A DNA stretch of 64,000 nt, taken from the IMG/VR virus record IMGVR_UViG_3300045988_112234, positions 51,374-115,373 of that record; one strand, 5' to 3'. This document shows, piece by piece, positions 11,904 to 64,000 of this stretch (position 1 is its first letter; every line of letters starts with the position of its first letter). The stretch comes from a virus. The position numbers and the translations under genes are program-made. The notes below the pieces were generated by a model. The model worked only from the letters and a program-made list of their open reading frames with translations. It was not told where the DNA came from and ran no database searches.

Positions 11904-11926
11904 AAAAACTACTTACTTTATAATTA

Positions 11927-39078: not shown

Positions 39079-39479
39079 AACTTTTTAATTTTTAAACTAG
39101 CATCCTTAAACCATATATTAAGTCTATCTATGGCACTTTCCCATTCAGATTGAGAGCAGATTTTATAATATTTTAAAAAGTTAGTATTATCTGCATTAAA
39201 TTGGTATATACCTATACATTTACCACCAGGAGTGATTTTAGTTACAGTATATCCAGTACCATCATTGATAACTACTTTTAGATAAGATGTGTTATCTTTA
39301 TAGTAAGGATGTTCTCTAAGAGCGTGATTACTAACTTTCAGTTTTTTAGCTCTTATATTATTTATTATTTCTCCTATAGTATTCTCTAAATTATCTCTTT
39401 GACTTAGAAACTTTATTTTGAGTTTTTCCAAGTCCTCAATAGACATTTCCGAATAGTTATTTATATTTTCTGTTTCCAT
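39075..39479 (-). CDS. hypothetical protein (134 aa)
   Basis: ORF. Confidence 0.5.
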   Translation of the reverse strand: METENINNYSEMSIEDLEKLKIKFLSQRDNLENTIGEIINNIRAKKLKVSNHALREHPYYKDNTSYLKVVINDGTGYTVTKITPGGKCIGIYQFNADNTNFLKYYKICSQSEWESAIDRLNIWFKDASLKIKKL

Positions 39480-39481
39480 AA

Positions 39482-39781
39482 CTATAATTTTTTTAATATT
39501 TTTACATTCTTAATTAATGGTTCGCCATCAGTACCAGTTTCATCTAACAAATCACCGGTTACTAGATATTTATTGCCAGTAAAGTATTTTACATTATATA
39601 TAAAATCATTAAATGCCATCTCATTTGTTGGAAATGGAAGAACAGGAGAATATGTTCCATTTATATTTTTATGAGCTTCATAAACAGACACACCCTTTTC
39701 TTTACCTATTACTTCATTATTATTGTTCCATATAGATGAACATGCATCTTCTGGAATTTCACCAAATCTATAGAATATCAT
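39482..39781 (-). CDS. hypothetical protein (99 aa)
   Basis: ORF. Confidence 0.5.
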   Translation of the reverse strand: MIFYRFGEIPEDACSSIWNNNNEVIGKEKGVSVYEAHKNINGTYSPVLPFPTNEMAFNDFIYNVKYFTGNKYLVTGDLLDETGTDGEPLIKNVKILKKL

Positions 39782-39927: not shown

Positions 39928-40278
39928 TCATTTTTCTCTAATATCTAGAATATCGTTGATTTTCCTTTCAATAAACTCATCAGAAGTATTTTCTTTTATT
40001 AGAGCATCAATGTCAGGCAACTCTACATCAACTTTATCTTCTTGTACTTTTGAAGTGAGCATACCAATTACTAATTTCGCCCAAGGACTATTAGCCATAT
40101 TTGTTAATGAATCCTTTTGGATTTCATAAGCTTTCTTTAATTCTCCATTATCACGGAAATATCTGAGAACATCTGTTAATGCAGCAACAAAGTTTTTGTC
40201 AGACATTGAATTGCTTTTAGCCTCTTCCAGTTTAATCATTAGAAAAAGCAATGATGAATGTAAATCTGTTTTGCTCAT
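39928..40278 (-). CDS. hypothetical protein (116 aa)
   Basis: ORF. Confidence 0.5.
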   Translation of the reverse strand: MSKTDLHSSLLFLMIKLEEAKSNSMSDKNFVAALTDVLRYFRDNGELKKAYEIQKDSLTNMANSPWAKLVIGMLTSKVQEDKVDVELPDIDALIKENTSDEFIERKINDILDIREK

Positions 40279-40280
40279 AA

Positions 40281-40655
40281 CTATTCTTCTCTTATACCAA
40301 ATGGAGTCCCATCTGCAAATGTATATTCTTTAATAGCACCTGAATAATTAGTATTATCATCAACATCTGTTATAAAACTATATTCGATTGCTCCTATTAG
40401 TTTAGTCCACCCAAACGGCTGGTGCTTTTGCATTTCTGCCCAGCACTCTTTTGCATCCTTGAATGGACGATACTTTGGTTCTGGCTTAACACGGTACTCT
40501 GTATTATTCCAAAACTCAATCTCTTTTATTTCCGTCCAATCATTCGGAACACTTGTGCCTTTTACGGCATTCGGCTTTGTCCTACACTCAATTGCCTTTT
40601 CTTCTGCAAAAGCTTGCAGAATAGGATAAAATTTTTTAGCTTGATTTCTGTTCAT
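40281..40655 (-). CDS. hypothetical protein (124 aa)
   Basis: ORF. Confidence 0.5.
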   Translation of the reverse strand: MNRNQAKKFYPILQAFAEEKAIECRTKPNAVKGTSVPNDWTEIKEIEFWNNTEYRVKPEPKYRPFKDAKECWAEMQKHQPFGWTKLIGAIEYSFITDVDDNTNYSGAIKEYTFADGTPFGIREE

Positions 40656-41005: not shown

Positions 41006-41751
41006 ATTCTATTTATTTCTTTTATAGTAATATTAATACGGATTGAGAATCCATTACCTATTTTATACACTCTATGACCAACATAGACAGTTTTAATTTC
41101 GTAGGAGTGCTTCATTCTTTAGTTTTAGATTGATTTTTGTAAAACTCTGGAACTCTATTTACTTCCCACCAAGAACCTCCTTCATCGCCACAAGACACTA
41201 TCCATACTGGTTCTTTAGTATCTTTATCTTGACAGTACCTAAAACGTCATCATGCCAAAAGACAGAATCTACTTCAAAGTCTAAGTCCTCTAAAGTGATA
41301 TAGACTTTACAGGAAAATATATTTCTATCTTCATTATAGCGTCTAGCAAAAGCTTCCATCACTATTTACTAAGTCTATTTTAAGTATTTCTAGATTATTC
41401 TTTTCGACAATCTCTAGAATTGACTTTTTAACATTTATTTTACCCATTATTCATCCTCCAACTCTTTAAGTACATCCTCAATATTGCCCATAGCCTTCCA
41501 AAGAAGATTATGCTGAGTAGCACCGCCTTTATTGTATTCATCAAGCTGACTGAATGCTTGACTTAATAATTCCTTAATTTTGCTCATTACTTTCTCTCCT
41601 TTATATTACATGTTGCTTGGTCTCCTTCATAGTAAGGAGCACCAACTTTAGGTAATATTTGAGTATCCATATTACAGGAACATTGCATCACCCAAGGTGC
41701 GTTTACCTTTCCACATCTAGGGCATATCCATCCTTCTTGTGCCATATTATT

Positions 41752-44921: not shown

Positions 44922-44966
44922 AAAGCCTTAACTTACTTTCGCTCATTCTGTGTCGTGGAGGTTGTA

Positions 44967-45916
44967 CTATTCAGGATTATTTCTTGTGCCTAGAAGATGT
45001 TCATTACCTTCGTAAGGAATACAATACTTACGACTAAATCCGATACACCGAAAAGGATATTGTGATTCTTCTCTATAATGAGAAAAGAGATCAGCTTCCC
45101 ATACATCATCTTTCTCATTTCGCCCCAACACTTTATCGAATGGCTTAAACTCACACTTTGGCTTCAAATCCACAATCTGTTTCTTCTCACTATCCCAAGC
45201 CTTGCCTTTCTTTGTAAGGGCATCAAAAAGTTCTTTCTTTTCATCCTCTCTAGCAGGATAAAGTCTTGAAAGAAGAAAATTATCTATAGGTACATTAGTT
45301 TCAACAAGTTTCTTATGTCTAATCAAAGAAACTATTGATTCTGTTATATTTTCATCCTTATGAAGTATTAAAGTTGTATGTCTTGTAAATGAATCTTCAT
45401 CACAACTAAGTATATCTCCATCCTTAAACTTTGGTTGCTTTTCAATCTCCAAAGTTTCAAGATTGAGCTTGCCATCCAAACGCTTCTTTATGGTGTTAAT
45501 GTAGGTCTGAGCTTCAAGGGAATATCTTTCAGTTGTGCATAAGAATTCTTCATAATATACGATTTTATTCTTATCTTCACTGTTAAGGTAATGCTTACAA
45601 TAAAAACTTGTACATCGTACCATTTGTCAAAGATAACCTCTGTGCCACCATCACCTTTTTCCCATTGGAACTTAGACCAATCACGCATTTCCTTAGATGG
45701 GAAGATAATACATTCTCCGCCATCATACATATTACCAAATTTAATTAAGGTACATTCTCCAGATTGTGTTAAACCAAATTTTGAAGTACAGAAGTTTATT
45801 TTAAAAATTTCATCTGTTACTGCTTCAGAACTACATTTACCATGAATCATAGAATACAATTTAGTACCCCTTGGTTTATTCTTCAAGATTTCTGCTATAT
45901 TAAGTTTCTGTTCCAT
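44967..45916 (-). CDS. one gene of about 316 aa apparently split by a frameshift in a T5 homopolymer near 45600 (track ORFs 45488-45916 and 44967-45623)
   Basis: adding one T in gtttttatt joins ...FDKWYDVQVF to YCKHYLNSEDKNK... in frame. Confidence 0.45.
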
Positions 45917-50510: not shown

Positions 50511-50681
50511 CTTAGCGCTTTAGGCTTTTTATAAGAAGCCTTAACTTAATAAAGTTCTCGCATAATTTATAACCAAAAACAGATAAATAATTCCATTTTC
50601 ACAAACAGAATTTTTACCGAAAACTTAGAAAATTCTTAAAACTTATGAGTATAAAACATCGAATATGAATAATAATAGAGT

Positions 50682-50753
50682 AAATATGGACAGACTCGAA
50701 CTGTCAACCTCTGGTTACCTAGCCAGTGCCCTACCGCTTTAAACTACATATTT
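50682..50753 (-). tRNA. tRNA-like gene with an 8-nt anticodon loop CTAGGTAA on a 4-bp stem (identity unresolved)
   Basis: good acceptor AAATATG/CATATTT and T-arm GACAG-TTCGAGT-CTGTC; the anticodon stem fits only as CTGG/CCAG with an 8-nt loop. Confidence 0.4.
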
Positions 50754-52089: not shown

Positions 52090-52155
52090 GAATAAAATAC
52101 TATTCTCATGAACCATATTTTCCAACTACAAGTTCACAATTTGTCATAAATGTTG

Positions 52156-52230
52156 CGGAGAAAGAAGGATTCGAACCTTCGAGCTAACACCTTAGCAGGG
52201 TGCCACTTTCGACCGCTCAGTCATTTCTCC
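52156..52230 (-). tRNA. tRNA with anticodon GCU (Ser-type) but a short class-I variable loop
   Basis: acceptor GGAGAAA/TTTCTCC, anticodon stem GCACC/GGTGT, loop CTGCTAA, T-arm GAAGG-TTCGAAT-CCTTC. Confidence 0.5.
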
Positions 52231-52343
52231 AATAAAGCTTCCTATCTTCACAGACAAGAAGCCTAGCAACTCTTTAACGTTATAAAGTCCGCTGACTTTA
52301 TATTTTAAATATTAATCGTATTAGTTTTTTAAATATGGAAGAG

Positions 52344-52416
52344 TAGCACTAGCGATGCTCGAAATCGCCTTTGGATCTTGAAAGAATCCCGTCCTAACCA
52401 GCTAGACAATAGTGCC
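52344..52416 (-). tRNA. tRNA-Glu (anticodon UUC)
   Basis: acceptor GGCACTA/TAGTGCT, anticodon loop CTTTCAA, T-arm GCGAT-TTCGAGC-ATCGC. Confidence 0.6.
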
Positions 52417-52590
52417 AAGTAGATTCTCTATCTTTACAGACTGAGAATCTCGTGTATTACAAATGAATACTTTTAACAAATTAAAAATTAATGGTGCTCC
52501 CTGACAGTACTGACCTGTCTTCCCGAAATTAAAAGTTTCGTGCTTCACCTTAAAGCTTAGAGAGCTAATTTATAATCTTATTTTGCACAC

Positions 52591-52636
52591 GGAGTAGGAT
52601 TCGAACCCACGCTCTGACCTTCTGAGCTATATCTCC
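52591..52636 (-). ncRNA. truncated tRNA-like mini-element: acceptor half, canonical D-arm and T-arm but no anticodon arm
   Basis: GGAGATA-TA-GCTCAGAAGGTCAGAGC-G-TGGGTTCGAATCCTAC-TCC. Confidence 0.3.
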
Positions 52637-52865
52637 ATAGCCCACATTTCTATAAAGGAGAATAGTGGTAACACCTACCTATACTAATAGATTTATTAGT
52701 TAGGATACACACTAACAATATGATTAAATTTAAATAAAATGATAGTGTCTTCTCAAATCATGACTGGTGATTGTAGAAATTCTACATAAATGAGCATTTT
52801 AAACGAAACTATTGATAATATCTAATAGTTGAAGATCTCACCTCCATCCTATCAAATTAAATTTG

Positions 52866-52935
52866 TACGGTAGAAAGGATTCGAACCAATGACCTATTAT
52901 AAAAAGAGATGCTTTAACCACTGAGCTACTACCGT
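52866..52935 (-). tRNA. degenerate tRNA-like gene (perfect acceptor ACGGTAG/CTACCGT, AT-rich anticodon arm with loop TTTTATA, weak T-stem); possible pseudogene
   Basis: hand fold has a mismatched anticodon stem and T-stem ATTGG/CCTTT. Confidence 0.3.
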
Positions 52936-52990
52936 AAGTACTAGTTTATATCGGAAAACTAGTAAAACGTTAACACATTATTATGGAAAC

Positions 52991-53341
52991 TTAAAAGCCA
53001 AATAAAAACATGGTATTTGCGGAAGTGCTGAGAGTTACATAAGGAATATTATCTCTTACTGTAATAAGGACAACAAAGCGTCTTTCTGTATTAACCTCTC
53101 TACAATAATGGATTTCTACTCCATCCTTCATTTCAGAAGAGTATATTTTTAATACCATTTTACCATACTCACTATTACTAAAAGTAATAGTTTGTCTGGC
53201 TTCATTATATACTACTGAAGTTTTAATATACAATGGTTTGCCCCATTCACCATCTTGATAAAGAGTGATAGAACCATAATTAAACGCATGAGCTATTGTA
53301 GTTAATACAATAAAACTCATTAATAAAATAATCTTTTTCAT
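52991..53341 (-). CDS. secreted protein (116 aa) with signal peptide
   Basis: MKKIILLMSFIVLTTIAHA signal. Confidence 0.5.
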   Translation of the reverse strand: MKKIILLMSFIVLTTIAHAFNYGSITLYQDGEWGKPLYIKTSVVYNEARQTITFSNSEYGKMVLKIYSSEMKDGVEIHYCREVNTERRFVVLITVRDNIPYVTLSTSANTMFLFGF

Positions 53342-53365
53342 ATTACTTAATCTTTTAATGTTAGT

Positions 53366-53445
53366 ACGGAGTAAAGGATTCGAACCAATATAACCTCTCT
53401 ATGAATTGTGGAAGTGAGGTGCTCTAGCCATTAAGCTAACTCCGC
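53366..53445 (-). tRNA. 80-nt tRNA-like gene with an unresolvable anticodon region (possible intron/long insert or pseudogene)
   Basis: acceptor GCGGAGT/ACTCCGT, D-arm GCTT/GAGC, same unusual T-arm ATTGG-TTCGAAT-CCTTT as 52866-52935. Confidence 0.3.
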
Positions 53446-53450
53446 ATGTG

Positions 53451-53523
53451 TGGTCCTGGTGAGAATCTAACTCACGACCCGGAATTTAGAAGATTCCTGC
53501 TCTATACACTGAGCTACAGGACC
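53451..53523 (-). tRNA. tRNA-Arg (anticodon UCU)
   Basis: perfect acceptor GGTCCTG/CAGGACC, D-arm GCTC/GAGC, anticodon stem GGAAT/ATTCC, loop CTTCTAA, T-arm GTGAG-TTAGATT-CTCAC. Confidence 0.7.
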
Positions 53524-53527
53524 AAGT

Positions 53528-53550
53528 GCAACTAATTATCTGCTAGTTGC
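53528..53550 (-). terminator. hairpin gcaacta-attatctgc-tagttgc (copy 2)
   Basis: identical to 51015-51037; downstream of the 53577-53840 gene end and upstream of tRNA-Arg. Confidence 0.5.
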
Positions 53551-53576
53551 CAACAATATATATGAACTTTACAGAA

Positions 53577-53840
53577 TTACTCTATTATTTCAGTTTCAGA
53601 TATACACCATTTACCATTAATTTTAACGGCTTCTACCTGTTTATTATTTACTGTCTCAAGAGATACTTTATTTTCTAAAGTTCTATTGAACGAAATAATG
53701 TATTTGTTAGCCTCTTCTTTAGAATTGACTACACGAGACTGAATGCTATTGTTAATAACATTATATATCTTTCTTAAAACTTTCATAATTATAATTTTTA
53801 TAAAGTTAATAGTATATAGAGCATTGTTTCTCAACAACAC
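53577..53840 (-). CDS. hypothetical protein (87 aa)
   Basis: ORF. Confidence 0.45.
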   Translation of the reverse strand: MLLRNNALYTINFIKIIIMKVLRKIYNVINNSIQSRVVNSKEEANKYIISFNRTLENKVSLETVNNKQVEAVKINGKWCISETEIIE

Positions 53841-53948
53841 TCTACTATAGTTTCAAATATCCATTGTAAAAGTAAAAATTTGTTAATTTCAAATTTTATA
53901 GTTTAAATTATCATATTTTGCAAATTTTAAACTTTAACAAAGACAATT

Positions 53949-54455
53949 TTATAGTATGTCTGCAATATCCACATCATTATCTTCTGAGTCTGGACAAATA
54001 TCATATATATAATTCTCATTGTATTTTAAATGATAAGCAATGTGCTCTAACTTATTAATAATATTGTTTACTTTAGCTAATCTATTATAAGTAGAATCCA
54101 AAGCCTGATTCAAAGCATTTGCAATAACTTTACACATAGTATGCATAGCTTTATCTCTTACAATTCGATTAGCTACTACCTGGTCGTCCTTATCATTTTT
54201 ACTTAAAGTAATTTTAGAAACGACTGTTACAGTAGAATTATCAACAGTAAGTCCCCAAGAAGCAAGATTTTTAATGAAAATCTTTCTTTCTTTAGAAGTC
54301 GCAATTTTTAGGAATACAGAAGTATCAGCACTTGAAACTTTTATATTAGCTCCTTCTAAGTGATCCATTATGTACTCTAAATCACAAGACATAGTACAAA
54401 ACGTACTATTACCAACTCTTTCAATGCTGTACTTTACTTTCTTAATTGTCTGCAT
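53949..54455 (-). CDS. hypothetical protein (168 aa)
   Basis: ORF. Confidence 0.55.
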   Translation of the reverse strand: MQTIKKVKYSIERVGNSTFCTMSCDLEYIMDHLEGANIKVSSADTSVFLKIATSKERKIFIKNLASWGLTVDNSTVTVVSKITLSKNDKDDQVVANRIVRDKAMHTMCKVIANALNQALDSTYNRLAKVNNIINKLEHIAYHLKYNENYIYDICPDSEDNDVDIADIL

Positions 54456-54837
54456 TTTCTTTCGTTTTAGATTGTTTGAACAATTTAATGATGCCTTTTA
54501 AAACATATTCTGGAACATTTCCACAAAGGCATCCACCATTTACATACAGTTTAATATTACCATAAGTAAATTTAGTAATTTCAAGATTTCCTTCAGCGCC
54601 ATTAGATTCATTCTCTAACCATACTGGAAAATCTTTCCATTCATCTACAGTTAATGATTCATCAATAACTGAATGTTCTTCAATAGTCGGTTTCAGAGCT
54701 TTAAAATGCTTTAAGACTAAAGTCTTATGCACTGAATCAGCAAACTCTAGTTTCTTTGGTTTCTTGCTAAGAAAGAAGTAATCTTTACCAATTTTAGCCA
54801 CAACATTTTTCTGTTTAACATTAAATAATAATTCCAT
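54442..54837 (-). CDS. hypothetical protein (131 aa)
   Basis: ORF. Confidence 0.5.
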   Translation of the reverse strand: MELLFNVKQKNVVAKIGKDYFFLSKKPKKLEFADSVHKTLVLKHFKALKPTIEEHSVIDESLTVDEWKDFPVWLENESNGAEGNLEITKFTYGNIKLYVNGGCLCGNVPEYVLKGIIKLFKQSKTKENADN

Positions 54838-54848
54838 AATTTTTAAAA

Positions 54849-55247
54849 TTAATAGTTATATCTATCTAGTTCAAGATTAACTTCAGAAATTAATCTAGAT
54901 TTATATGTAGCTAATGCTGTTTTATAAGTTTCAGAATCAGCTTCATAATGACCTTCAATATATTCTAAAGTTCCCTCTTTGAACACTACAATTTTAGATG
55001 ATAAGTTATCTGATAGAAATACTATTCCATCAGATGTCAAAGATTTACTCCTAGTAAATCCTTTATTATACATATTAATATGTATATACAAACAATCGTA
55101 GAGACTTAAAGCATTGTTTATATTGCTTCTTATATCTCTTAGCTGATTAAGTTTTACTTGTTTTATTACTTTATTATGACTGGCAATAGTCCAAATCACA
55201 CATAGAATAAAAGCAAGTATAACAATTCCTAGCAAACCTTTATCCAT
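54849..55247 (-). CDS. membrane-anchored protein (132 aa)
   Basis: N-terminal TM. Confidence 0.5.
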   Translation of the reverse strand: MDKGLLGIVILAFILCVIWTIASHNKVIKQVKLNQLRDIRSNINNALSLYDCLYIHINMYNKGFTRSKSLTSDGIVFLSDNLSSKIVVFKEGTLEYIEGHYEADSETYKTALATYKSRLISEVNLELDRYNY

Positions 55248-55590
55248 ATATTCTTGGTTCTGTATTAATGTTTTTAGAACTCATATATTGGTAAAGCCAT
55301 TTAACATTATTTACAACAAAAGTGTTACCTTTTATATCTGTAAATAATATTTTCTTGTACTTATCCATAATTAGTCCCGATAATACTAACAAAGGATTTC
55401 TAATATATGCTGCAAATGTTCCCCCCTTTATACTTTCTCCAGAAATAATTCTTAATGTATTATTAAGATATTGATATTTCTTATTGAAAGCATTAGCATA
55501 GTTAGCATTAGAAATATTGTACTCTGCATCAATCTGTGCTGAGAGCATTATTACTAAATCTCCCAGAGTATTGTGATTCATTGTTACCAT
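55240..55590 (-). CDS. hypothetical protein (116 aa)
   Basis: ORF. Confidence 0.5.
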   Translation of the reverse strand: MVTMNHNTLGDLVIMLSAQIDAEYNISNANYANAFNKKYQYLNNTLRIISGESIKGGTFAAYIRNPLLVLSGLIMDKYKKILFTDIKGNTFVVNNVKWLYQYMSSKNINTEPRIYG

Positions 55591-56061
55591 TGATAAATTC
55601 CTCCCAAAGATAATGTTTCTAAGTCACTCTTGATTGGAAGTTCTTTACCATGAATAGCTTTGTACTCCTTACTTACTTGTGCAATAGTTTTCTTTTTAGA
55701 AAAGACTAATGCTGTAATCTTAATAATGTCTTTTGTCTCCATTTTTTTAAACTATTTAATTATTAATAATGTGCCATCACCTTTCTCATTAAGAGTCTGC
55801 TACTTTGGATATGCAGGATGTAGGTTTACACTAGAGCTCTATCTGTCACAGACCGAACTCTAATATTTGTCTTTGTTGTGTTTATGGACATAGTAGATTA
55901 CTAAAGTAACTAGCCACAGACCGAACTAGCGAAAATGATCTAAATTGTATATTGTTGATAACTATTTTATTTTAAAAATACATAAGTCTTGTCTTATGAT
56001 TAACCAATTTTCTTTCCAAGATGTCAACTATTTATTATACTCTATAGTACTAGAGTGCAGC

Positions 56062-56436
56062 TTAATAAACTTCACTTCTTAAAGATTCATAGCCTTCATA
56101 TAATGGAAATTCTGAATTAAGAGTAATCTTAATAAAGACTCTGTTGTCGATAGTTACAAGTCCTACAGTTTTAATATTGCGATTACAATTATCAAAACTA
56201 GTACAAATAACTGTATTAGAGGTAAAATCTTCTATGCCTTTAAAACCCATATCAGCAAGAACCTTACATATAGGTGTTAAGTAATAAATTTTACCTTCCT
56301 TGATAACACAAGAAGAAAATGGAATTACTCTATCACTAATGTGATAAGTTCTAGCATCATGATCTATTATGAGAGCCTTACCTGCAAGACTCTCACAACC
56401 TGATACAATTTTTTTATTTAAGTTCTCTGTATTCAT
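56062..56436 (-). CDS. hypothetical protein (124 aa)
   Basis: ORF. Confidence 0.5.
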   Translation of the reverse strand: MNTENLNKKIVSGCESLAGKALIIDHDARTYHISDRVIPFSSCVIKEGKIYYLTPICKVLADMGFKGIEDFTSNTVICTSFDNCNRNIKTVGLVTIDNRVFIKITLNSEFPLYEGYESLRSEVY

Positions 56437-56457
56437 CTGTTACATCAATAATAAATA

Positions 56458-56922
56458 TTATAACTTATAATTATTTTGTTGGTATTCTGCTACTAATAAC
56501 TTAGCATTATCTGCAAGTGCTATAATATTAGATTTTAACAATCTTTTATAAGCACATAAGATAATGTCATAGCATGTCCGTGTAGAATCATATGGTTCTT
56601 CTTTAGAATCTTCCCATTGTGCGATAGTTCGAGTATTAAGACCATAGATTCCTCCAATATAAACCTCATTTATTGTCATAAGGTTTATATCTTTAGTTCT
56701 AAACATTCCATATTTATCTGGACCAAGGTTAGCATTACGAAACCCTTTATGCCAAATTCTTTTATGGAGTATCATACACTCAGATAGAGTATTGGCATTA
56801 CCAATTTTAGTAAGCCAACACTCATAACTATTAACAAGATCTTGTTGAAGTTTGTAATCTGTAACATTCTTGTTTAATTCCTTTTTATGGAAAATTTTAT
56901 TCCAAACGTTGTATTTCTTCAT
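56458..56922 (-). CDS. hypothetical protein (154 aa)
   Basis: ORF. Confidence 0.55.
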   Translation of the reverse strand: MKKYNVWNKIFHKKELNKNVTDYKLQQDLVNSYECWLTKIGNANTLSECMILHKRIWHKGFRNANLGPDKYGMFRTKDINLMTINEVYIGGIYGLNTRTIAQWEDSKEEPYDSTRTCYDIILCAYKRLLKSNIIALADNAKLLVAEYQQNNYKL

Positions 56923-57306
56923 TTTATTTAAATAATTAAATTGTTTATAAGTTTAAATATACATAATACATTTTTCGTTGAGGCACTTTAGTTTTAAGAC
57001 CTATAAACCACGTTGAGGTATGCTCTATGATATAGGATTTCGTCTAAAGTAAACTTTAGACAGGGATTTCAACCTATGGAATAAAAAACCTTTTGTTTGT
57101 TTTATTTTATTTGTGTTTTGTTATTTTTAGTAAAACATCTTACAAAGAATAAAGATATTATTGTATAATATCCTTAAAATTTATTTGATGTGATGTTGAT
57201 TTTTTGGAGTGATATATAAGTTGGTTTTAGTGAGAGAGATTGGGAAATTGAGGAAAGGTTTGTTTGGTGGATGGGGGTTGAGAATGGGGGTTTTTGTCCC
57301 AAAATC

Positions 57307-57552
57307 TCATACCAAGCCATACAAACAACTAACTTTCCTTACCCATTCCCACCTTATCCCCCACCATTTCCAACTATCTCTCCAAGTAGCATATTTGACA
57401 ACGATAACTTTATCATTTTCAATGAGAATCATAAAGATTCCAACAATTTGTGTCGGAAGTTGAACATTGTAGAATTCCAAAGTTTCTAAGTCAACAAGCT
57501 TATTTTTTCCATAAACTCCCTTAATAGTTTTGAACATATACAAAAAATACAA
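57307..57552 (-). CDS. small protein with Trp/Arg-rich C-terminus (81 aa, ...WRDSWKWWGIRWEWVRK...)
   Basis: ORF encoded opposite a C-rich/G-rich asymmetric stretch; preceded by a terminator of the upstream gene. Confidence 0.4.
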   Translation of the reverse strand: MYFLYMFKTIKGVYGKNKLVDLETLEFYNVQLPTQIVGIFMILIENDKVIVVKYATWRDSWKWWGIRWEWVRKVSCLYGLV

Positions 57553-57577
57553 AGAAATTTATAAAAAAAATTTTAAA

Positions 57578-57597
57578 GGAGAGAGATTACTCTCTCC
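57578..57597 (-). terminator. rho-independent terminator ggagagag-atta-ctctctcc plus T-run (minus strand)
   Basis: 8-bp stem immediately downstream of 57606-58019. Confidence 0.6.
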
Positions 57598-57605
57598 CCT
57601 TTTCT

Positions 57606-58019
57606 TTACTTAGTACCAATTACGTTATTAAAACGTTTTGCTCCACCATAGTTTTCAAGAGTTTCAATATCAGCTGTGAAACCTTTGAAACCCTTCTCGT
57701 TGATGATTTTAACGGCGTCATCAACATCAGCCGCTCCAGGTGCCAACATAGCCAGCACTCGATTACAATTGATAGTACGAACACCATCTAAGCCCTCTAT
57801 AGTGACGTTAGCCATGGTGGCAACTACTGCCTTTGAGGCAGCAATTCCTCTCATAACATCACCTGGCATTGATTGCTCTGATGCAGATACTGATGTATCA
57901 TCAGTGAAGCTAAACTTAAGCCCAGTAGCTTTACCGTTCAATGCAGCCTGAATGGCTGCAGCACCCATGGATACCTGGCGAAGTGCTAAAGCTCCGCCGC
58001 CTTTAACTGTAATTTTCAT
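57606..58019 (-). CDS. hypothetical protein (137 aa), Gly/Ala/Val-rich, markedly GC-richer than the genome
   Basis: long ORF with strong codon bias shift. Confidence 0.6.
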   Translation of the reverse strand: MKITVKGGGALALRQVSMGAAAIQAALNGKATGLKFSFTDDTSVSASEQSMPGDVMRGIAASKAVVATMANVTIEGLDGVRTINCNRVLAMLAPGAADVDDAVKIINEKGFKGFTADIETLENYGGAKRFNNVIGTK

Positions 58020-58109
58020 AATCTTTAATTGTTTTAAATTTGTTAATAATTTTTATTTGGTTTTTACTCCAAATATGTGGGGGGCTCTAAGGGGTAGTGA
58101 ACACCCGTA

Positions 58110-58240
58110 TAAATAACTAAATTTAATTTTACTAGCCATTAATTTCCTAAAAATTAACTAAATTTAATTTAAAAATTAACTAAATTTAATTTAAAAATTA
58201 ACTACTAGCCATTAATTTCCTAAAAAATAACGGGGGGGGG
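58110..58240. promoter_or_regulatory. divergent control region: iteron-like repeats taactaaatttaattt (x3) and actagccattaatttcctaaaaa (x2) followed by a G9 homopolymer
   Basis: repeats at about 58114, 58155, 58177 and 58131, 58203; cggggggggg at 58231-58240; sits between the minus gene starting at 58019 and the plus cassette starting at 58327. Confidence 0.4.
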
Positions 58241-58326
58241 AATATATAAAGTAACCTTAAAAATTTTTTATGCATTCCTACATTTGTTCTATTTATAATT
58301 TTTGTGACATAATTTTTGTGAATCAT

Positions 58327-58443
58327 ATGAATAAATTAATTTTAATTAAAACAAATGTTAATATGAAACAAATAGAGTCAATTAAAGTTGGAGTGGGTGG
58401 AGAGATATTATTAGCTTGTTAGTGCTCTGCCAGATATATTTAA
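58327..58443 (+). CDS. small ORF (38 codons) with one in-frame TAG at 58420
   Basis: MNKLILIKTNVNMKQIESIKVGVGGEILLAC*CSARYI, TAA stop. Confidence 0.35.
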
Positions 58444-58449
58444 GAGATA

Positions 58450-58659
58450 ATGAAGAATTTTATAAGTTATCTAAAGCAGAGTCTAATGTATTAGCTTACT
58501 TCTAATTATTATGAAGATAAAGATAGGGCACTTCCAGGAAATAAGATTTCTTTAGATGAAGAACTTAGAGATACTATTAAAATTAAAACTAACTTAGCTG
58601 CTGGAACTATACGTAATACTATTACTCCTTTAGTAAAGAAAAAGATGTTTACTATTTAA
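58450..58659 (+). CDS. small ORF (69 codons) with one in-frame TAG at 58492
   Basis: MKNFISYLKQSLMY*LTSNYYEDKDRALPGNKISLDEELRDTIKIKTNLAAGTIRNTITPLVKKKMFTI, TAA stop. Confidence 0.45.
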
Positions 58660-58950
58660 ATCCTGAATACTTTTTTAAAGGTAAAATATCTGATAGAACT
58701 CAAATTATAAAAAATATAATTGAGTATAAGTTTATTTAGTAATTGAATTTTTAAAATTTTAATTTAAAAATCTTAGAATATTAACTTTTACAAAAATTAA
58801 CTTTTTAATATTCTCTACCTCGACTATATTACTCGCGTAATCAAAAAGAAATATTAAATGAATAAAGAACAACTAATACAAAGTATTAAAGACCTTCCTG
58901 ATTAGTATAATATAAATTTATAGGTTATTGATAATGTAATTCATATAACC

Positions 58951-59160
58951 ATGACTAAAAAGGTAGATGAATTTGAAGAATATTGTAGTAAATTAGATGA
59001 TGAAACATTTAACAATGCTTGTCTAATATTTGGAATTATCTCAGATATATCTTTAGAAGATTTTTCTTCTAATTTAGATAATTCTAAATATAAAAAATAT
59101 AAACAAGAATTTAAACACATAGTGGATTTTTTAAATGATAGAAACATTACAAAAAATTAA
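58951..59160 (+). CDS. small hypothetical protein (69 aa), standard code
   Basis: ORF in the plus-strand cassette. Confidence 0.45.
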   Translation: MTKKVDEFEEYCSKLDDETFNNACLIFGIISDISLEDFSSNLDNSKYKKYKQEFKHIVDFLNDRNITKN

Positions 59161-59322
59161 TAAGATAGTTCCTAATCTTACAGTATCTCAATTAATAGAA
59201 CTAGTAAATATTATTAATGGTTTTAAAAGATATACCACATTTATTACAATAAACACTAGTGATAATAAAACTACTTCTACTGAAAATCCTTTTAGTGTTA
59301 GTAGTTATTTATAAGATAATAT

Positions 59323-59394
59323 TCTCCTATGGTGTAATGGTTAGCACAGAAGACTCTAAATCTTTTAGTCAGGGTTCGAATCCTTGTGGGAGAA
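59323..59394 (+). tRNA. amber suppressor tRNA, anticodon CUA (tRNA-Sup; amino acid identity not determinable, Gln is the usual assignment in TAG-recoding phages)
   Basis: acceptor TCTCCTA/TGGGAGA, D-arm GTGT-AATGGTTA-GCAC, anticodon stem GAAGA/TCTTT, loop CTCTAAA (U33-CUA-A37), variable TAGT, T-arm CAGGG-TTCGAAT-CCTTG; 72 nt. Confidence 0.8.
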
Positions 59395-59469
59395 GAATAG
59401 CGTAAGTAGAAACCTCCACGTGGTGCTATTCGGATAACGCTAATTCTACTTTAAAAACATAATCTTCAA

Positions 59470-59751
59470 ATGATAGCAGCAATTTATGAATTAAATGGTA
59501 AGATTTTAAAAACAACTAATCTTACTAAAAAATTAAAACGATTAAAATCAGAACCTAAGATTCTATTTCAATTAGAGAATGGAACAGAAGCTGATTTAGA
59601 CCAATGGATTAAAGATAACCAAAATATAAATTCTAATTCAGAAGAAGATATTGAAATTAAAAAATATCATTATAGAAATCCAATTACAGGATATACAATG
59701 ACTTCTATATATGATAATCTAGATGTTAATGATTATATAAAAATTGATTAA
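59470..59751 (+). CDS. small hypothetical protein (93 aa), standard code
   Basis: ORF directly downstream of tRNA-Sup. Confidence 0.45.
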   Translation: MIAAIYELNGKILKTTNLTKKLKRLKSEPKILFQLENGTEADLDQWIKDNQNINSNSEEDIEIKKYHYRNPITGYTMTSIYDNLDVNDYIKID

Positions 59752-59909
59752 TGACTAACAAAGAATTAAAAGGCTTAAAGTCTAAAATGAACAAAGTACT
59801 TAATGAAGTACAGTAGATTATTGATACTATAGGAGATAATGATTTACAAGATAATCAATTAACTCTTGATTTTTGCGATAAGTTAAATGAATTATCTGTT
59901 ACTTATTAA
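59751..59909 (+). CDS. small ORF (52 codons) with one in-frame TAG at 59814; ATG overlaps the TAA of the upstream ORF
   Basis: MTNKELKGLKSKMNKVLNEVQ*IIDTIGDNDLQDNQLTLDFCDKLNELSVTY, TAA stop. Confidence 0.4.
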
Positions 59910-59951
59910 TAAATATTTGGGGATGGATATTTATTAATTTTAAAAAAAAAT

Positions 59952-59985
59952 AGCCGAGGCTTCTCATTTGAGAAACTTCGGCTAT
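59952..59985. terminator. bidirectional terminator: 15-17-bp stem agccgaggcttctca/tgagaaacttcggct flanked by an A9 run and a T-rich stretch
   Basis: between the end of the plus cassette and the convergent minus-strand late gene ending at about 60103. Confidence 0.6.
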
Positions 59986-60102
59986 TGTGGTATTATTGCT
60001 TTATATACAAAAAATTTCCTCCACCAGCATCATATTCTAATAAATCATCTCTGGTAAATATTTTATCAAAGGTTCTTAATCCTGAATGATATCTAGAGTA
60101 TT

Positions 60103-60660
60103 TTTAACATTGTTTCTAGATTTCATAGCCTCTATCTCATCTCTAATATTATCTATACTTCCAGAAACTAAACGAACTTCTTTACCAGCCTATATAATTA
60201 TTCTTCCTCCAGCTATAGAACCATATTCATCAGTTATATTATTATTAGCTAAGAAATTTAATCTGTTATTTACAGTATAGCATGGACTTTTTTTAGAACC
60301 ATTAGAATTACTTTCCATGAATAATACATTATCTTTAGAATCTGTTTTAAAACCAGTTTTAAATGTTGAAGAAATCATACTTCCATTAGGAATATCTGAA
60401 TATTTACCAAAAACAAATTTACCAATAGAATCTATACCTATATAATTCTAATTATTAGGAGATATACTTTCTTTAGATTTGAAATTAGAAAAAGCAGTAA
60501 TAGGAGCTGCTATACTATTTATAGGAGTATAATTACCTCTATTTCTATAACCAAAAGTATGCTTTGTTAAGGATTCTGGTATACGATATCTTCTAGAGTT
60601 TATTTTAGTAGTATCATTTATAGTTTGGAGATATTTCTATTTCTCTCCTCTTATTTTTAG
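60103..60660 (-). CDS. late (structural-looking, N/S/T/G-rich) protein gene segment with in-frame TAG codons at 60190, 60448 and 60637; TAA stop at about 60103; start not resolved
   Basis: track ORF 60190-60378 ends on TAG and continues 29 more sense codons to a TAA; upstream the frame is open to a TAA at 60661 except for TAGs. Confidence 0.45.
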
Positions 60661-60956
60661 TTACTTTTTTATTAGGAATTTTAATTCTTTTACTAGTATG
60701 CTCAGGTTCTGAATCAAAAAATAACTATAGTTTTCTACTTAATCCATTTCCTACTAAATTAATCAACTATTTACCACTATTGTTTCTTCTTTCTATTTAG
60801 GAGTAGATATTTTTTTAGCAGTGGGCATTTCTTTATATTTTGCCGGGTGGTAGATGTTGGTTTCTACTCCTTTAGCCTAAACCTATGGAAATATTATACT
60901 TTATCAGAATTAATTTTAAAAGGGATCTTATTTGATTACCATACAACTACCCATCT

Positions 60957-61377
60957 TCATACCAGTATTGAATCATTATCAGTATACAGCCATGGTGTTC
61001 TTACTATTACTGGAGTTCCTAATTTATTTAATATTTTTAATCCTAATACAGCTTTACTGTCTAAATCATATGAACTCCATTTCTACTTATATTCATCAGG
61101 ATTAAACTTCCAAATATCTTGTGCTCTATATACTTTCTTACCATTAGATGTTCCTTCCTAAACTAAATGTCCAGCAGTATCTCCAAAGTCTAGATTATTA
61201 TTAGCACCTTTCCAAGGAGTTTTATTAGTTATATTAGAAGCTTTCTATATAGGTTTCTTAGTAAAGAAATCTAAAGTTTCTGTATTTTCATATACAGGAA
61301 TATCTTTATAAGGTTTCTTATATAATTTTAATGTGCTACATTTATCTTTCTTACTCCATAAGAAGGATTTATAGTTT
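60957..61377 (-). CDS. late gene segment ending in TGA at about 60957 with three in-frame TAG codons within about 100 codons; start not resolved
   Basis: ...KPYKDIPVYENTETLDFFTKKPI*KASNITNKTPWKGANNNLDFGDTAGHLV*EGTSNGKKVYRAQDIWKFNPDEYK*KWSSYDLDSKAVLGLKILNKLGTPVIVRTPWLYTDNDSILV-TGA. Confidence 0.35.
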
Positions 61378-64000
61378 TATTATATAAATCATATCATTGC
61401 CTTTAGCTGCTTTCTAAAATCCAGTATATGCTTCAGGAGCATAGGTATTGTAACCTACACCAGTTGATATATAACTCCAGCATGTTTTTTAGGACTTGCC
61501 TTATGCATATTATATACTATGTCTTCTATAGGATTCGCATTATTCTCATAGCTACTTCTACTCCACGTTTTAAAGGAACTTTTACAGCATATCCTATTAC
61601 AGAAGCATTACTAAATAATTACTAGCTTTAGTTGGATTCTTAGATATATCTAAAGCACCTTTAGTATAATCATATACTGCCTAAGCAGCTGGAGCTAAAG
61701 CATAACCTATTCCTGAATTAACTAATGCTTTAATAGGACTAGTATTATTATTCCAACTATCTACTTCTCTAGCATAAGCTCCTTTTATAGGATGGGTTCT
61801 ATTCTTATTACTATAATTATATAATTTAGAATTAGTATGCCCACCCTATTTTATAGTCCTACAAATACATCTTGTACCCCATTTAAAGTTCTAACGGGAA
61901 TAACTCTCTACTAATATTTAGCACCAAGATATGAAGCTAGGATGATTTAATCTATTATAATATTCCATATCTATAGCCATCTATTTATTCCGAGTATTAT
62001 TATTTACTCCTTTATTTTGTTTACTCTCATCTACTATTGGCATATTTATACTTTATTTTTCCATATACTAGTTATACTATCTATACCTAGTAATCCCATA
62101 CAACAATATAAAACTGTATCTATCATATCAGGAGCTTGTATCTAACTAATAGAACAGTATATTAGAATAATTAAACTTACTATCCATCCTAATATTCCAC
62201 ACACTCTTTTACTACTTATTCCAGTATGTGCTGTTATTAATTTAATTAAAAACTATTTCATATTTTTTCACATAGTTTTAATAAAGAATCTAGAGTAATC
62301 TCAGAATATGATATTTCTACTGGGTTTTCCATAGTAATCCTTTTTCAGTTTTAATCATCTGTTTCATATTTTTTTAAATATTTATCCCATAACTATTTAT
62401 CCCTCTCACTTACAAAATCTAAAAATCTTTGTAATTCTTCAATTTTTTCTGTCAAAATATATGTATCCATTATTATTTTTATTAGGTTTTAAATTAAATC
62501 CACTACCTTTAGTTTTAGTAATATACAATGTTGGGAGACTCCATCATAAACTACTTTAGTTCCACCATTATTATAGTCATAATCGGAACCTAGATAGTCC
62601 ATAGTATAATCTAAAGGCTAACCACTATTAGGTTTTATATATTGATCTTTACTTATTATTATCTCTACTCCAAGATTTATCTCCTAAATCTGGATAAGTC
62701 GGATGAGTTTTAGTTTTATAAGTCCCTGAAGCTCCTTCATCAGGAAAATGCCCAGTAGGAATATACCTATTCCAATTATGTGCTAGAATACTATTTAACT
62801 ATAGCCAAGCTACTATAGGTTGGTCATTATAGTATTTTCTATAATCGTAATGGTCTTTATACCCCATGCTTGAGATAACTATTTATTCCAAATATTATAA
62901 TTATTATTATTTATTTCTGGCATGTATATCAATAATATTAGGTATAATCTAAATAGGTAACTATATCTTAGGACTTAATTTAATAACATCATTTGCTATT
63001 ATAGTATTCCATTTAGCTACCTATTCTAAATAAGATCTATTTAATTCCTAAGATGTGAAGTATGAACCTTGACTTGGTCGAACTCCTTTTTTAGCTAATT
63101 TTTTAGTAGTTTCTTTTTTCTACTAATTTAATACTACGTCGACTTGTCTCTTCCGCATAGCATTAACTCTTGGAGATTAGGGTAATAATCAGGTAGATCT
63201 AAGAAGTTTAGAACCTCCTTTAGTTAAAGTTGTTGCAAATTTAGCTCCTAATATATCTGCCCCAGTTTCTAAAGTATTCCATACAGCGCTTCCAAAATTA
63301 CTTGGGGATTCTTTAAAAATCTTGTACCATCCTCTACCAGCTATAGCTAAAGAAGGCAACTAACCTACTCCAGCAATAATTCCTCCTATAGGAGCACCTA
63401 CAGCGGTAGTACTTATACCTGCACCTAGTCCTAAACTACCTAAAGATATAGCTGCCGCAGTAGGTTCTCATTTATCTGCTTGACGATCTAATTCTTCAAA
63501 AATTTCAGGCATTTCTAAATTTATTTATATATTTTGCAACACTAATACCATTGGCATCAGACCCTCCTGCAATACCATGTTTATAATAATTTTTAGTCCA
63601 TGTTGGACTTAACCATGATGCTGCTATAGCTTCTCCAGTAACTGCTATACCATTATTTCTTAAAAATCTTGCATTAGCATCATATAATTGTGATGCGGCT
63701 AATACTTGTGCATCAGGACTATTTTTAAACTGTTCTCTAGATAAATTAGAATATTTATTTCTAGTACCATCTATAAGCTAGAACCATCCAGTAGCAGAAC
63801 TATTTTTAGATTGAGCTTTAGAATTAAATCCTGATTCTAGAGAAGCTATCTTCATTAAAGTAATTTTCTTGTTTCCAGTGATACCATATTTATCTAAAGT
63901 CTATTCTAGTACCTATTTATTTTTACTAGGCTTGTTTCCAGTGATTAAAGTCTATTCTAGTACCTATTTATTTTTACTAGGCTTGTTTCCAGTGATACCA
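61378..64000 (-). other. remainder of the minus-strand late-gene block; the standard-code ORF track is fragmentary here, consistent with TAG-recoded coding sequence (gene boundaries unresolved)
   Basis: high density of plus-strand cta triplets; the only track ORFs are short antisense ones. Confidence 0.4.
63868..64000. repeat. tandem direct repeat of about 51 bp (about 2.5 copies; unit aaagtctattctagtacctatttatttttactaggcttgtttccagtgat) running into the window edge
   Basis: 63896-63945 and 63947-63996 are identical; cttgtttccagtgatacca recurs at 63868 and 63982. Confidence 0.6.

What the first reader, a model, noticed from the sequence alone, without database searches (positions are those of the whole stretch)
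58327..59985. Plus-strand amber-suppressor cassette: tRNA(CUA) embedded among small ORFs, three of which contain in-frame TAG
This is the only plus-strand coding island in 64 kb. It holds a cloverleaf-perfect tRNA whose anticodon loop is CUCUAAA (anticodon CUA). Three of the surrounding small ATG-to-TAA ORFs (58327-58443, 58450-58659, 59751-59909) each contain exactly one in-frame TAG and no other stop. The cassette is bounded by a repeat-rich divergent promoter region (58110-58240) and a strong bidirectional terminator (59952-59985). Together with the TAG-containing late genes and the TAG-containing homing endonuclease, this looks like a self-contained stop-codon-recoding module (TAG reassigned; TAA and TGA retained). 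Placing TAG inside the small ORFs next to the tRNA would make their own expression depend on the suppressor, a possible feed-forward switch.
Basis: seen in the sequence. Interest (0 to 1): 0.9.

Follow-up and report, generated by a model that had tools for sequence, protein, structure and literature searches.

The report
Amber-suppressor tRNA in recoded gut phage
The window holds a real glutamine-type amber-suppressor tRNA of a large human-gut phage whose late (virion) genes use TAG as a glutamine codon, which is a known strategy; two of the three "TAG-containing small genes" beside it are broken pieces of one ordinary gene.

Summary
The tRNA(CUA) at 59323-59394 is real: ARAGORN calls it, Rfam scores it 63.6 bits, and 8 of 21 stem pairs covary among relatives. 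Its closest annotated match is a phage tRNA-Gln(UUG). It serves a genuine TAG-to-Gln recoding. TAG density is 1 per 1000 codons in the 58-kb replication block and 23-28 per 1000 in the late block (portal, terminase, transglycosylase). One TAG aligns with the invariant Gln of the SLT motif.

The cassette reading is only partly right. ORFs 58327-58443 and 58450-58659 are frameshifted fragments of one TAG-free winged-helix gene that is intact in five relatives, so their TAGs are out of frame. Their homologues in sister lineages carry no TAG, so a designed feed-forward switch is not supported.

The phage looks like a Zeta-type crAss-like phage, where suppressor tRNAs and late-gene recoding are already described.

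Extras found in relatives:
- The tRNA always lies in a conserved small-ORF cassette.
- In 8 of 30 related loci it is split in the anticodon loop by a probable group I intron, so the tRNA finder used here (ARAGORN) misses it.

The window also carries an unexplained swarm of 6-28-nt deletions from 52 to 64 kb.

The parts
58111..58231 (.). AT-rich repeat array in the divergent intergenic region: a 22-nt unit (TAAAAATTAACTAAATTTAATT) x3 interleaved with a 29-nt unit x2. The motif AAAAATTAACT recurs at 58792, upstream of ORF-A.
   Evidence: the repeat finder. Motif counts: 6 observed versus 0.56 expected. The 23-mer occurs twice versus 0 expected. Function not tested.
58327..58742 (+). Frameshifted (pseudogene or mis-assembled) winged-helix gene.
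   Evidence: Alignment with MT835539 shows 4-, 11- and 28-nt deletions in the window. The intact TAG-free ORF of about 151 aa is present in L001, L022, L025, L026 and L031, and absent from L004, L005 and L009. Pfam matches are weak and below cut-off: RepL E=0.0018 and Penicillinase_R E=0.0075.
58858..59160 (+). ORF-A, 100 codons, with in-frame TAG at 58903-58905 and 58921-58923. Function unknown.
59135..59314 (+). ORF-A2, 59 codons, no TAG. Function unknown. The window copy has 20/26-nt and 7-nt deletions that shift and then restore the frame.
59323..59394 (+). tRNA-Sup(CUA), glutamine type
   Evidence: ARAGORN; Rfam 63.6 bits; covariation. It is 85% identical to the annotated tRNA-Gln(TTG) of Acinetobacter phage AM24, sharing the D arm and anticodon stem. 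An identical or near-identical gene occurs in 40 related loci.
59396..59469 (+). 74-nt spacer. It equals the 5' leader of a GIY-YIG homing-endonuclease insertion found between the tRNA and ORF-B in relatives, so it is a remnant or 'empty' form.
   Evidence: The same sequence opens the roughly 750-nt GIY-YIG insert in L014, L016 and L037. It is absent in L001, L008 and L009.
59470..59751 (+). ORF-B, 93 codons, no TAG. This is the conserved tRNA-linked small protein family; function unknown.
59751..59909 (+). ORF-C, 52 codons, with in-frame TAG at 59814-59816. Function unknown.
   Evidence: The TAG is conserved in lineage 1. Homologues are TAG-free and continuous across that position. There is no ATG after the TAG, so the conserved C-terminus needs read-through.
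59949..59986 (.). Strong hairpin between the convergent cassette (+) and late block (-). It is preceded by A9, which gives a U9 tail on the - strand transcript.
   Evidence: Conserved in MT835539 (98.7% identity over 59470-60023).
60076..63999 (-). Start of the TAG-recoded late block. The gene fragments carry 1-6 in-frame TAGs each, including an SLT lytic-transglycosylase domain at 63505-63999.
   Evidence: SLT Pfam E=3e-9 on the MT835539 orthologue. The TAG aligns with Q of gp144. The window copy is broken by about 33 short deletions relative to L006.

Best explanation
The window is part of a roughly 170-190-kb, 30%-GC human-gut phage, most likely a Zeta-type crAss-like phage, that uses two dialects of the genetic code.

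The replication and nucleotide-metabolism block (1-58 kb, - strand) can be read with the standard code. The late block that starts at 60 kb and continues in relatives into portal, terminase and very large virion proteins uses TAG as its main glutamine codon. TAA and TGA remain stops.

The decoder is the tRNA(CUA) at 59323-59394, a derivative of a tRNA-Gln. It lies in a short, oppositely oriented operon between the two blocks.

Inferred steps: the host glutaminyl-tRNA synthetase charges the tRNA, as happens with supE-type suppressors. The charged tRNA then competes with release factor 1. Full-length virion proteins can therefore be made only after the tRNA has accumulated.

The small ORFs around the tRNA (A, A2, B, C) are conserved neighbours of unknown function. 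TAG codons in A and C of this lineage are best read as drift from CAA/CAG in genes that are translated while the suppressor is present, not as a designed switch. The two other 'TAG ORFs' are debris of a frameshifted winged-helix gene.
For: - tRNA call, score and covariation.
- tRNA-Gln ancestry.
- TAG density is 1.05 per 1000 codons in 81 early genes, 22.8 in the window's late block and 27.9 in the MT835539 late block, where TAG is 57% of TAG+CAA+CAG. All ORFs end in TAA or TGA.
- Coding potential continues across TAGs.
- TAG aligns with the invariant Q of the SSATGWFQ motif of phiKZ gp144.
- Among orthologue pairs, 342 TAG sites pair with TAG. Of the 24 that do not, 12 pair with Gln, 11 of them CAA, which is two mutations away from TAG.
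- The late block holds portal (46 TAG), TerL, a 2071-aa protein (64 TAG) and SLT.
- Early genes that contain TAG mostly have it 0-12 codons before a TAA or TGA.
- Cassette synteny holds in about 70 loci.
- The TAGs of A and C are absent from sister lineages.
- The winged-helix gene is intact and TAG-free in five relatives.
- The literature describes the same pattern: Yutin 2021 (PMC7886860), Borges 2021 (10.1101/2021.08.26.457843), Peters 2022 (PMC9523058), Babkin 2025 (PMC12386605).
Against: - There is no direct evidence of charging with Gln, of expression timing, or of the host's code.
- Only one TAG falls on an invariant Gln of an outside family. The orthologue table also shows Lys (6), Ile (4) and Pro (2) partners.
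- The acceptor stem has C2:G71, U3:A70 and A73, which differ from the E. coli GlnRS identity set (G2:C71, G3:C70, G73; from my own knowledge).
- The window copy of the late block is riddled with frameshifting deletions, so this particular sequence may not encode a viable phage.
- Assignment to crAss-like phages rests on remote TerL similarity of 22-26%.
Confidence: 0.85

Rival explanations
1. Feed-forward switch. TAG codons were placed in the small ORFs next to the tRNA so that their expression depends on the suppressor, forming a positive-feedback code-switch circuit.
For: ORF-A (2 TAG) and ORF-C (1 TAG) do need read-through to yield their conserved parts. Those TAGs are conserved in about 20 lineage-1 loci. 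The A/B/C neighbourhood of the tRNA is deeply conserved.
Against: - Two of the three cited ORFs are frameshift artefacts.
- Lineage-1 loci are 85-99% identical, so conservation of the TAGs there says little.
- Homologues of A and C in lineage 2 (about 14 loci) and in L055, L070, L052 and L074 have no TAG.
- ORF-B, the most conserved neighbour, never has a TAG.
- No function is known for any of these proteins.
Confidence: 0.07
2. The tRNA(CUA) mainly attacks the host by reading through host TAG stops to cripple defence or physiology. Decoding of phage genes is secondary. This was proposed for Zeta crAss-like phages that carry 'idle' suppressors.
For: Babkin 2025 (PMC12386605) reports clades with a CTA suppressor but no recoding. 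Early genes here tolerate read-through because back-up stops follow their TAGs.
Against: In this phage the late genes cannot be made without TAG decoding: 46 TAGs in the portal and 64 in a 2071-aa virion protein. Decoding is therefore essential, and host sabotage could at most be an additional effect.
Confidence: 0.05
3. The tRNA inserts an amino acid other than Gln: pyrrolysine as ARAGORN labels it, or Lys, Glu, Tyr, Trp, Leu or Ser.
For: ARAGORN prints 'tRNA-Pyl' for any CUA anticodon. The orthologue table includes Lys, Ile and Pro partners. The acceptor stem is not E. coli tRNA-Gln-like.
Against: - The tRNA has a standard cloverleaf with a 4-nt variable loop and a tRNA-Gln-like D arm and anticodon stem.
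- No pyl genes were seen among the window proteins.
- TAG falls on an invariant Gln.
- Gln (CAA) is the dominant non-TAG partner.
- TAG-to-Gln has been verified by mass spectrometry in other crAss-like phages (PMC9523058).
Confidence: 0.03

Closest known systems
Zeta-group crAss-like phages with amber recoding (Yutin et al. 2021, PMC7886860; Babkin et al. 2025, PMC12386605)
   Same: - Human-gut origin, genomes of 145-192 kb (related contigs here are 163-190 kb) and about 30% GC.
- Many tRNAs, including Sup-CTA.
- TAG in late genes only.
- Heavy load of homing endonucleases, introns and inteins. Here these are LAGLIDADG, HNH and GIY-YIG endonucleases and an intein-like insert in an exonuclease.
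- TerL hits only crAss-like phages.
   Different: - No phylogenetic placement was done, and TerL identity is only 22-26%.
- No named Zeta genome appeared in the GenBank phage collection searches. Only three UNVERIFIED scaffolds appeared: MT835539, MT835492 and MT835470.
- A conserved tRNA cassette and an intron-split suppressor tRNA were not mentioned in the passages I read.
Code-15 (TAG to Gln) phages in general: Lak megaphages, crAss-like, Garnet, Amethyst, Sapphire and other clades (Borges et al. 2021 preprint, 10.1101/2021.08.26.457843; Peters et al. 2022, PMC9523058)
   Same: Standard-code replication genes, recoded structural and lysis genes, a phage-encoded suppressor tRNA, and a recoded homing endonuclease sitting in an early region. 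The last is described for Agate phages; here it is the LAGLIDADG gene at 6234-7229.
   Different: There are only short nucleotide matches of about 80-83% to Lak phages. Genome size and the TerL hits (which were confined to crAss-like phages) differ from Lak.
Jade-phage 'code change module' (suppressor tRNA + tRNA synthetase + release factor upstream of the lysis cassette; Borges et al.)
   Same: A discrete locus holding the suppressor tRNA lies at the edge of the recoded block.
   Different: No synthetase or release factor was found in the window. The neighbours are small proteins of unknown function. The Jade module is written in standard code, whereas two cassette ORFs here contain TAG.
Group I introns in bacterial and plastid tRNA anticodon loops (tRNA-Leu(UAA) of cyanobacteria and plastids; from my own knowledge)
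   Same: This applies to relatives, not the window. The insert sits in the anticodon loop, the 5' exon ends in U and the intron ends in G. A P1 pairing CUCU/GGAG is visible in the ORF-less L048 intron (less clear in the HNH-bearing one), as are R/S-like core elements (GUAGAGACUAUA ... GAAGAAAUAGUCC). The insert is about 225 nt without an ORF and about 990 nt with an HNH ORF.
   Different: The host gene is a phage suppressor tRNA, and the insertion lies between anticodon nucleotides 35 and 36. Rfam scores (13.6-16.8 bits) are far below the gathering score of 50. Splicing is untested.

Membership tests
Phage amber-suppressor tRNA serving TAG-to-Gln recoding (code 15) | Canonical tRNA with anticodon CUA | tested here: met
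   ARAGORN; Rfam 63.6 bits; covariation in 8 of 21 pairs
Phage amber-suppressor tRNA serving TAG-to-Gln recoding (code 15) | In-frame TAG in conserved phage genes, with TAA and TGA still terminating | tested here: met
   Portal has 46 TAG and TerL fragment 7. All ORFs end in TAA or TGA.
Phage amber-suppressor tRNA serving TAG-to-Gln recoding (code 15) | TAG positions correspond to Gln in homologues | tested here: met
   One invariant Q in the SLT motif versus phiKZ gp144. Gln, mostly CAA, is the main non-TAG partner at 12 of 24 sites. The sample is small.
Phage amber-suppressor tRNA serving TAG-to-Gln recoding (code 15) | tRNA body of glutamine type | tested here: met
   85% identity to annotated tRNA-Gln(TTG) of phage AM24. 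The acceptor stem and discriminator differ from the E. coli identity set (my own knowledge).
Phage amber-suppressor tRNA serving TAG-to-Gln recoding (code 15) | Gln actually inserted at TAG; tRNA expressed before the late genes | not testable with these tools
   Needs proteomics and a transcript time course.
crAss-like phages (Crassvirales), Zeta group | Homology of hallmark virion and packaging genes (TerL, portal, MCP) to crAss-like phages | tested here: inconclusive
   The TerL fragment of MT835539 hits only crAss-like phages beyond its own clade, but at 22-26% identity. Portal and TerL match PHROGs. MCP not examined and no tree built.
crAss-like phages (Crassvirales), Zeta group | Genome of 145-192 kb with many introns, inteins and homing endonucleases, and many tRNAs | tested here: met
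   Related contigs are 163-190 kb. There are 14 tRNAs in the window. LAGLIDADG, HNH and GIY-YIG endonucleases and an intein-like insert are present.
'Code change module' of Jade phages (tRNA + aaRS + RF) | Release factor and/or aminoacyl-tRNA synthetase next to the suppressor tRNA | tested here: not met
   None among the cassette ORFs or among 57 early-block proteins.
Pyrrolysine tRNA (ARAGORN's label) | Pyl-type tRNA architecture together with pylS and pylBCD genes | tested here: not met
   Ordinary cloverleaf of tRNA-Gln type. No Pyl genes among the proteins scanned.
Group I intron (for the insert in relatives' tRNA, not in the window) | Conserved catalytic core (P3-P9, P7 from R/S elements), U at the 5' splice site and terminal G | tested here: inconclusive
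   Rfam Intron_gpI gives 16.8 bits, E=0.059 (L048) and 13.6 bits, E=0.31 (L001), both below the gathering score of 50. The boundaries, the P1 pairing and the R/S-like motifs were read directly.
RepL / winged-helix replication or repressor proteins (for the broken gene 58327-58742) | Pfam match above the curated cut-off | tested here: not met
   RepL 18.2 bits against a cut-off of 20.3. Penicillinase_R 17.1 bits against 22.6.

The most novel reading that the evidence does not exclude
The suppressor tRNA may be the centre of a deeply conserved 'code-switch cassette' rather than a lone gene.
- ORF-B is always directly downstream of the tRNA. ORF-A, ORF-C and often a winged-helix protein lie alongside. 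These proteins could be functional partners of the switch, for example controlling tRNA expression or processing, or antagonising release factor 1.
- In about a quarter of relatives the tRNA is interrupted in its anticodon by a self-splicing group I intron, with or without an HNH endonuclease. The genetic-code switch would then be gated by RNA splicing.
- The intron-split form also explains why suppressor tRNAs go undetected in some obviously recoded phages.
Probability: 0.15. Interest if true: 0.75.

Novelty: new member of a known kind. Interest (0 to 1): 0.33.

Why it matters
The main result is a correction. This is a textbook-style case of late-gene TAG-to-Gln recoding with a phage suppressor tRNA, already described for crAss-like and other gut phages. 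Most of the 'TAG ORF' evidence for a special switch dissolves on comparison with relatives.

Two by-products could be useful to people who annotate recoded phages:
1. In this clade the suppressor tRNA is often split by an intron in the anticodon loop, so ARAGORN fails to call it. Published surveys repeatedly report recoded genomes with no detectable suppressor.
2. The tRNA lies in a conserved small-gene cassette that is a hot spot for three kinds of homing endonuclease. This offers candidates for experimental work on how the code switch is timed.

Tried and rejected
- Rfam on all of L001 at E<0.1 found nothing. The intron signal appeared only when short stretches were searched, and it stays below the gathering score.
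- I searched for independent contigs carrying one of the window's deletion junctions. None turned up in IMG/VR or JGI/ENA metagenomes, so the deletions could not be validated.
- I searched GTDB genomes for the tRNA to find a host or prophage. There was no hit.
- Pfam and PHROGs gave nothing for ORF-A, A2, B, C or for the 137-aa gene at 57606-58019.
- Several low-Z GIY-YIG hits, together with an 'IY...NGK...T.NL' motif, suggested that ORF-B is a degenerate GIY-YIG domain. Profile comparison with the neighbouring GIY-YIG endonuclease gave probability 0.1 and Pfam gave nothing, so I dropped the idea.
- I asked whether the repeats plus the winged-helix gene mark a replication origin. GC skew only mirrors the coding strand and shows no global switch, so this is unsupported.
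- A tblastn of the 677-aa early protein was uninformative for taxonomy, because it hits many unrelated phage groups.
- The first search for related loci attempt with the 30-sequence ORF-B alignment failed because it had no conserved stretch. It worked with 11 sequences.
Full report
**1. Is the observation there?**

ARAGORN finds 12 tRNAs in the window. Eleven are on the - strand between 30 and 53.5 kb. One is on the + strand at 59322-59395 with anticodon CTA. Rfam scores it 63.6 bits, the second best of 13 tRNA matches.

Its sequence recurs, identical or nearly so, in 8 IMG/VR contigs and 31 metagenome contigs. The nine distinct variants keep the cloverleaf through compensatory changes: 8 of 21 pairs, 98.9% of cells paired, and 0 of 500 shuffles as good.

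A coding-potential scan trained on the window's own long ORFs finds + strand genes only between 58.4 and 59.9 kb.

The repeat array at 58111-58231 (22 nt x3, 29 nt x2) is real. So is the hairpin at 59949-59986, at about -23 kcal/mol on either strand with z about -6. Only the - strand transcript gets a U9 tail. The hairpin is therefore first of all the terminator of the late block that runs into it.

**2. The three 'TAG ORFs'.**

Alignment with the closest record, MT835539.1 (90% identical), shows that 58327-58443 and 58450-58659 are parts of one ORF of about 151 aa. That ORF is uninterrupted and TAG-free in MT835539. The window lacks 4, 11 and 28 nt there.

The same gene is intact in four more contigs (L022, L025, L026, L031) and absent from others. 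It is a variable winged-helix gene with weak, sub-threshold RepL and Penicillinase_R matches. Both TAGs are out of the true frame.

The third ORF, 59751-59909, is genuine. Its TAG (59814-59816) is conserved in all window-like loci. TAG-free homologues run continuously across that position, and no ATG follows it.

Its N-terminal stretch aligns with 130-133-aa TAG-free homologues.

**3. Is TAG recoded?**

Yes, in part of the genome.
- The 81 - strand genes of 1-58 kb hold 15 TAGs in 14,273 codons. Four sit in a LAGLIDADG homing endonuclease (6234-7229). About half of the rest lie 0-12 codons before a TAA or TGA.
- In 60-64 kb the density is 22.8 per 1000 codons.
- In the 35 kb of MT835539 that continue this block the density is 27.9 per 1000. 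There TAG makes up 57% of TAG+CAA+CAG.
- That block encodes portal (46 TAG), TerL, a 2071-aa protein (64 TAG) and an SLT transglycosylase.
- In the window's SLT domain, 'SSATGWF-TAG-LIDGT' aligns with 'SSATGWFQFLTGT' of phiKZ gp144.
- Across orthologue pairs, 342 TAG sites face TAG. Of the 24 that do not, 12 face Gln (11 CAA), 6 Lys, 4 Ile and 2 Pro.
- The tRNA is 85% identical to an annotated phage tRNA-Gln(TTG), sharing the D arm and anticodon stem.

**4. What phage is it?**

Related contigs are 163-190 kb and come from human gut samples. The early block has NrdD, a DnaB-like helicase, NAMPT, RNase H, flotillin and several homing endonucleases.

Beyond its own clade, the TerL of MT835539 hits only crAss-like phages, at 22-26% identity. 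Size, GC content, tRNA load, intron and intein load and the Sup-CTA tRNA fit the Zeta group of crAss-like phages (PMC7886860; PMC12386605).

Late-gene recoding with a phage suppressor tRNA is well documented (10.1101/2021.08.26.457843; PMC9523058). The core of the finding is therefore a new member of a known kind.

**5. The cassette.**

The order ORF-A, (A2), tRNA, ORF-B, ORF-C holds in every related locus with enough flank.

All 30 IMG/VR loci found through ORF-B have a tRNA(CUA) directly upstream, 22 intact and 8 interrupted. A lineage whose ORF-B is about 38% identical has two tandem tRNA(CUA) genes there, with an ORF-C-like gene and an HTH_36 protein upstream.

None of A, A2, B or C matches Pfam, PHROGs or a solved fold. 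No release factor or synthetase is present in the window.

The TAGs of A and C occur only in the window's lineage. This argues for drift under an active suppressor rather than a designed feed-forward loop.

**6. Mobile elements at the tRNA (relatives).**
- In MT835539 and L045-47 the tRNA is split after CUCU of the anticodon loop by about 990 nt that encode an HNH endonuclease.
- L048, L050, L052 and L070 have ORF-less inserts of about 225-240 nt at the same site. L053 has another HNH form.
- The boundaries (U|...G|), the P1 pairing and the R/S-like core motifs fit a group I intron. Rfam gives only 13.6-16.8 bits.
- ARAGORN reports no tRNA in any of these loci.
- Other relatives carry a GIY-YIG endonuclease gene between the tRNA and ORF-B. 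The window's 59396-59469 spacer is the leader of that element.

**7. Sequence quality.**

Relative to relatives that agree with one another, the window lacks about 33 segments of 6-13 nt (plus two single bases and one 26-nt segment) between 59.2 and 63.4 kb. It lacks three more in the winged-helix gene and about a dozen between 52 and 57 kb, two of which truncate tRNA genes. In 1-36 kb such gaps are sparse.

Most of these deletions are not multiples of three, and they break the late genes into frame-hopping pieces. No independent contig with one such junction was found. I cannot tell an assembly artefact from a decaying variant. Either way, the deletions are the source of the two spurious TAG ORFs.

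**8. Verdict.**

There is a real glutamine-type amber suppressor in a TAG-recoded, probably Zeta crAss-like, gut phage. The recoding interpretation is right, but the 'self-contained module with feed-forward switch' is not supported.

Interest is modest for the finding itself. The intron-split suppressor tRNA and the conserved cassette in relatives are the parts worth following.

Noticed in passing
window 52100-63400 (for example 52185, 52896, 55611, 56061, 58404, 58498, 58638, 59221, 60092, 61178, 63343): There is a swarm of about 50 short deletions, mostly 6-16 nt and up to 28 nt, relative to several relatives that agree with each other. Density rises from about 1 per 330 nt (52-57 kb) to about 1 per 140 nt (59-63.4 kb). 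In 1-36 kb they are sparse. They frameshift the late genes and the winged-helix gene and truncate tRNA-Ser (76 nt versus 89 nt). I saw no common motif in the deleted segments.
   Followed up: partly
L001 5417-6491 (MT835539.1); L045-L048, L050, L052, L053, L070 upstream of position 2500: In 8 of 30 related IMG/VR loci, and in MT835539, the suppressor tRNA is split between anticodon nucleotides 35 and 36 by a probable group I intron. The insert is about 225 nt without an ORF or about 990 nt with an HNH endonuclease. At least two unrelated intron sequences use the same site. ARAGORN calls no tRNA in these loci, which may explain 'missing' suppressors in recoded phages.
   Followed up: partly
window 59396-59469; L013, L014, L016, L020, L029, L037, L038 between the tRNA and ORF-B: Several relatives have a free-standing GIY-YIG homing endonuclease gene of about 750 nt inserted right after the tRNA. 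The window keeps only its 74-nt leader.
   Followed up: partly
window 6234-7229 (-): A LAGLIDADG homing endonuclease with four in-frame TAGs sits inside the otherwise TAG-free early block. The same pattern was reported for an intron endonuclease in Agate phages, where recoding is thought to delay its expression.
   Followed up: partly
window 11924-12697, 27168-27422, 39461-39781, 40275-40655, 41159-41359, 44943-45623 (-): These early genes end in TAG followed 0-12 codons later by TAA or TGA. Termination is therefore safe both before and after the suppressor appears.
   Followed up: partly
window 50680-50753, 52866-52935, 53365-53445 (-): Three odd tRNA-like genes. One has an 8-nt anticodon loop (ARAGORN 'aggt'). 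One has an 11-nt insertion in the anticodon loop (about 16 nt in all; Rfam only). One has a defective anticodon stem, and its counterpart in relatives is an 82-nt 'tRNA-??? (ta)'. Their identity and function are unclear, and some may be damaged by the deletions.
   Followed up: partly
L074 2833-2983 (Logan SRR27608089 contig, 176.7 kb): A distant relative carries two different tRNA(CUA) genes in tandem directly upstream of its ORF-B homologue. An ORF-C-like gene and an HTH_36/DnaD_N-like protein lie upstream.
   Followed up: no
window 58111-58231 and 58792-58802: The iteron-like repeats (22 nt x3, 29 nt x2) lie next to the broken winged-helix (RepL-like) gene, and the core motif AAAAATTAACT recurs upstream of ORF-A. 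They could be operator or origin repeats. GC skew gives no origin signal.
   Followed up: partly
window 63895-64000 (-): The N-terminal part of the SLT protein contains a tandem duplication (GNKPSKNK-TAG-VLE-TAG-TL twice) that includes two TAG codons per copy. Relatives (L001 and L006) show one copy.
   Followed up: no
window 151-275 and 24880-24980: Short nucleotide matches of about 80-83% to Prevotella Lak megaphages. These are the only similarity to named phages in the early block.
   Followed up: no
L073 4809-6752 (MT835539.1 24808-26751): A TAG-free 647-aa ORF inside the heavily recoded late block combines an exonuclease-like N-terminus with an intein/homing-endonuclease-like insert. The insert matches 'terminase' PHROGs through that insert.
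   Followed up: no
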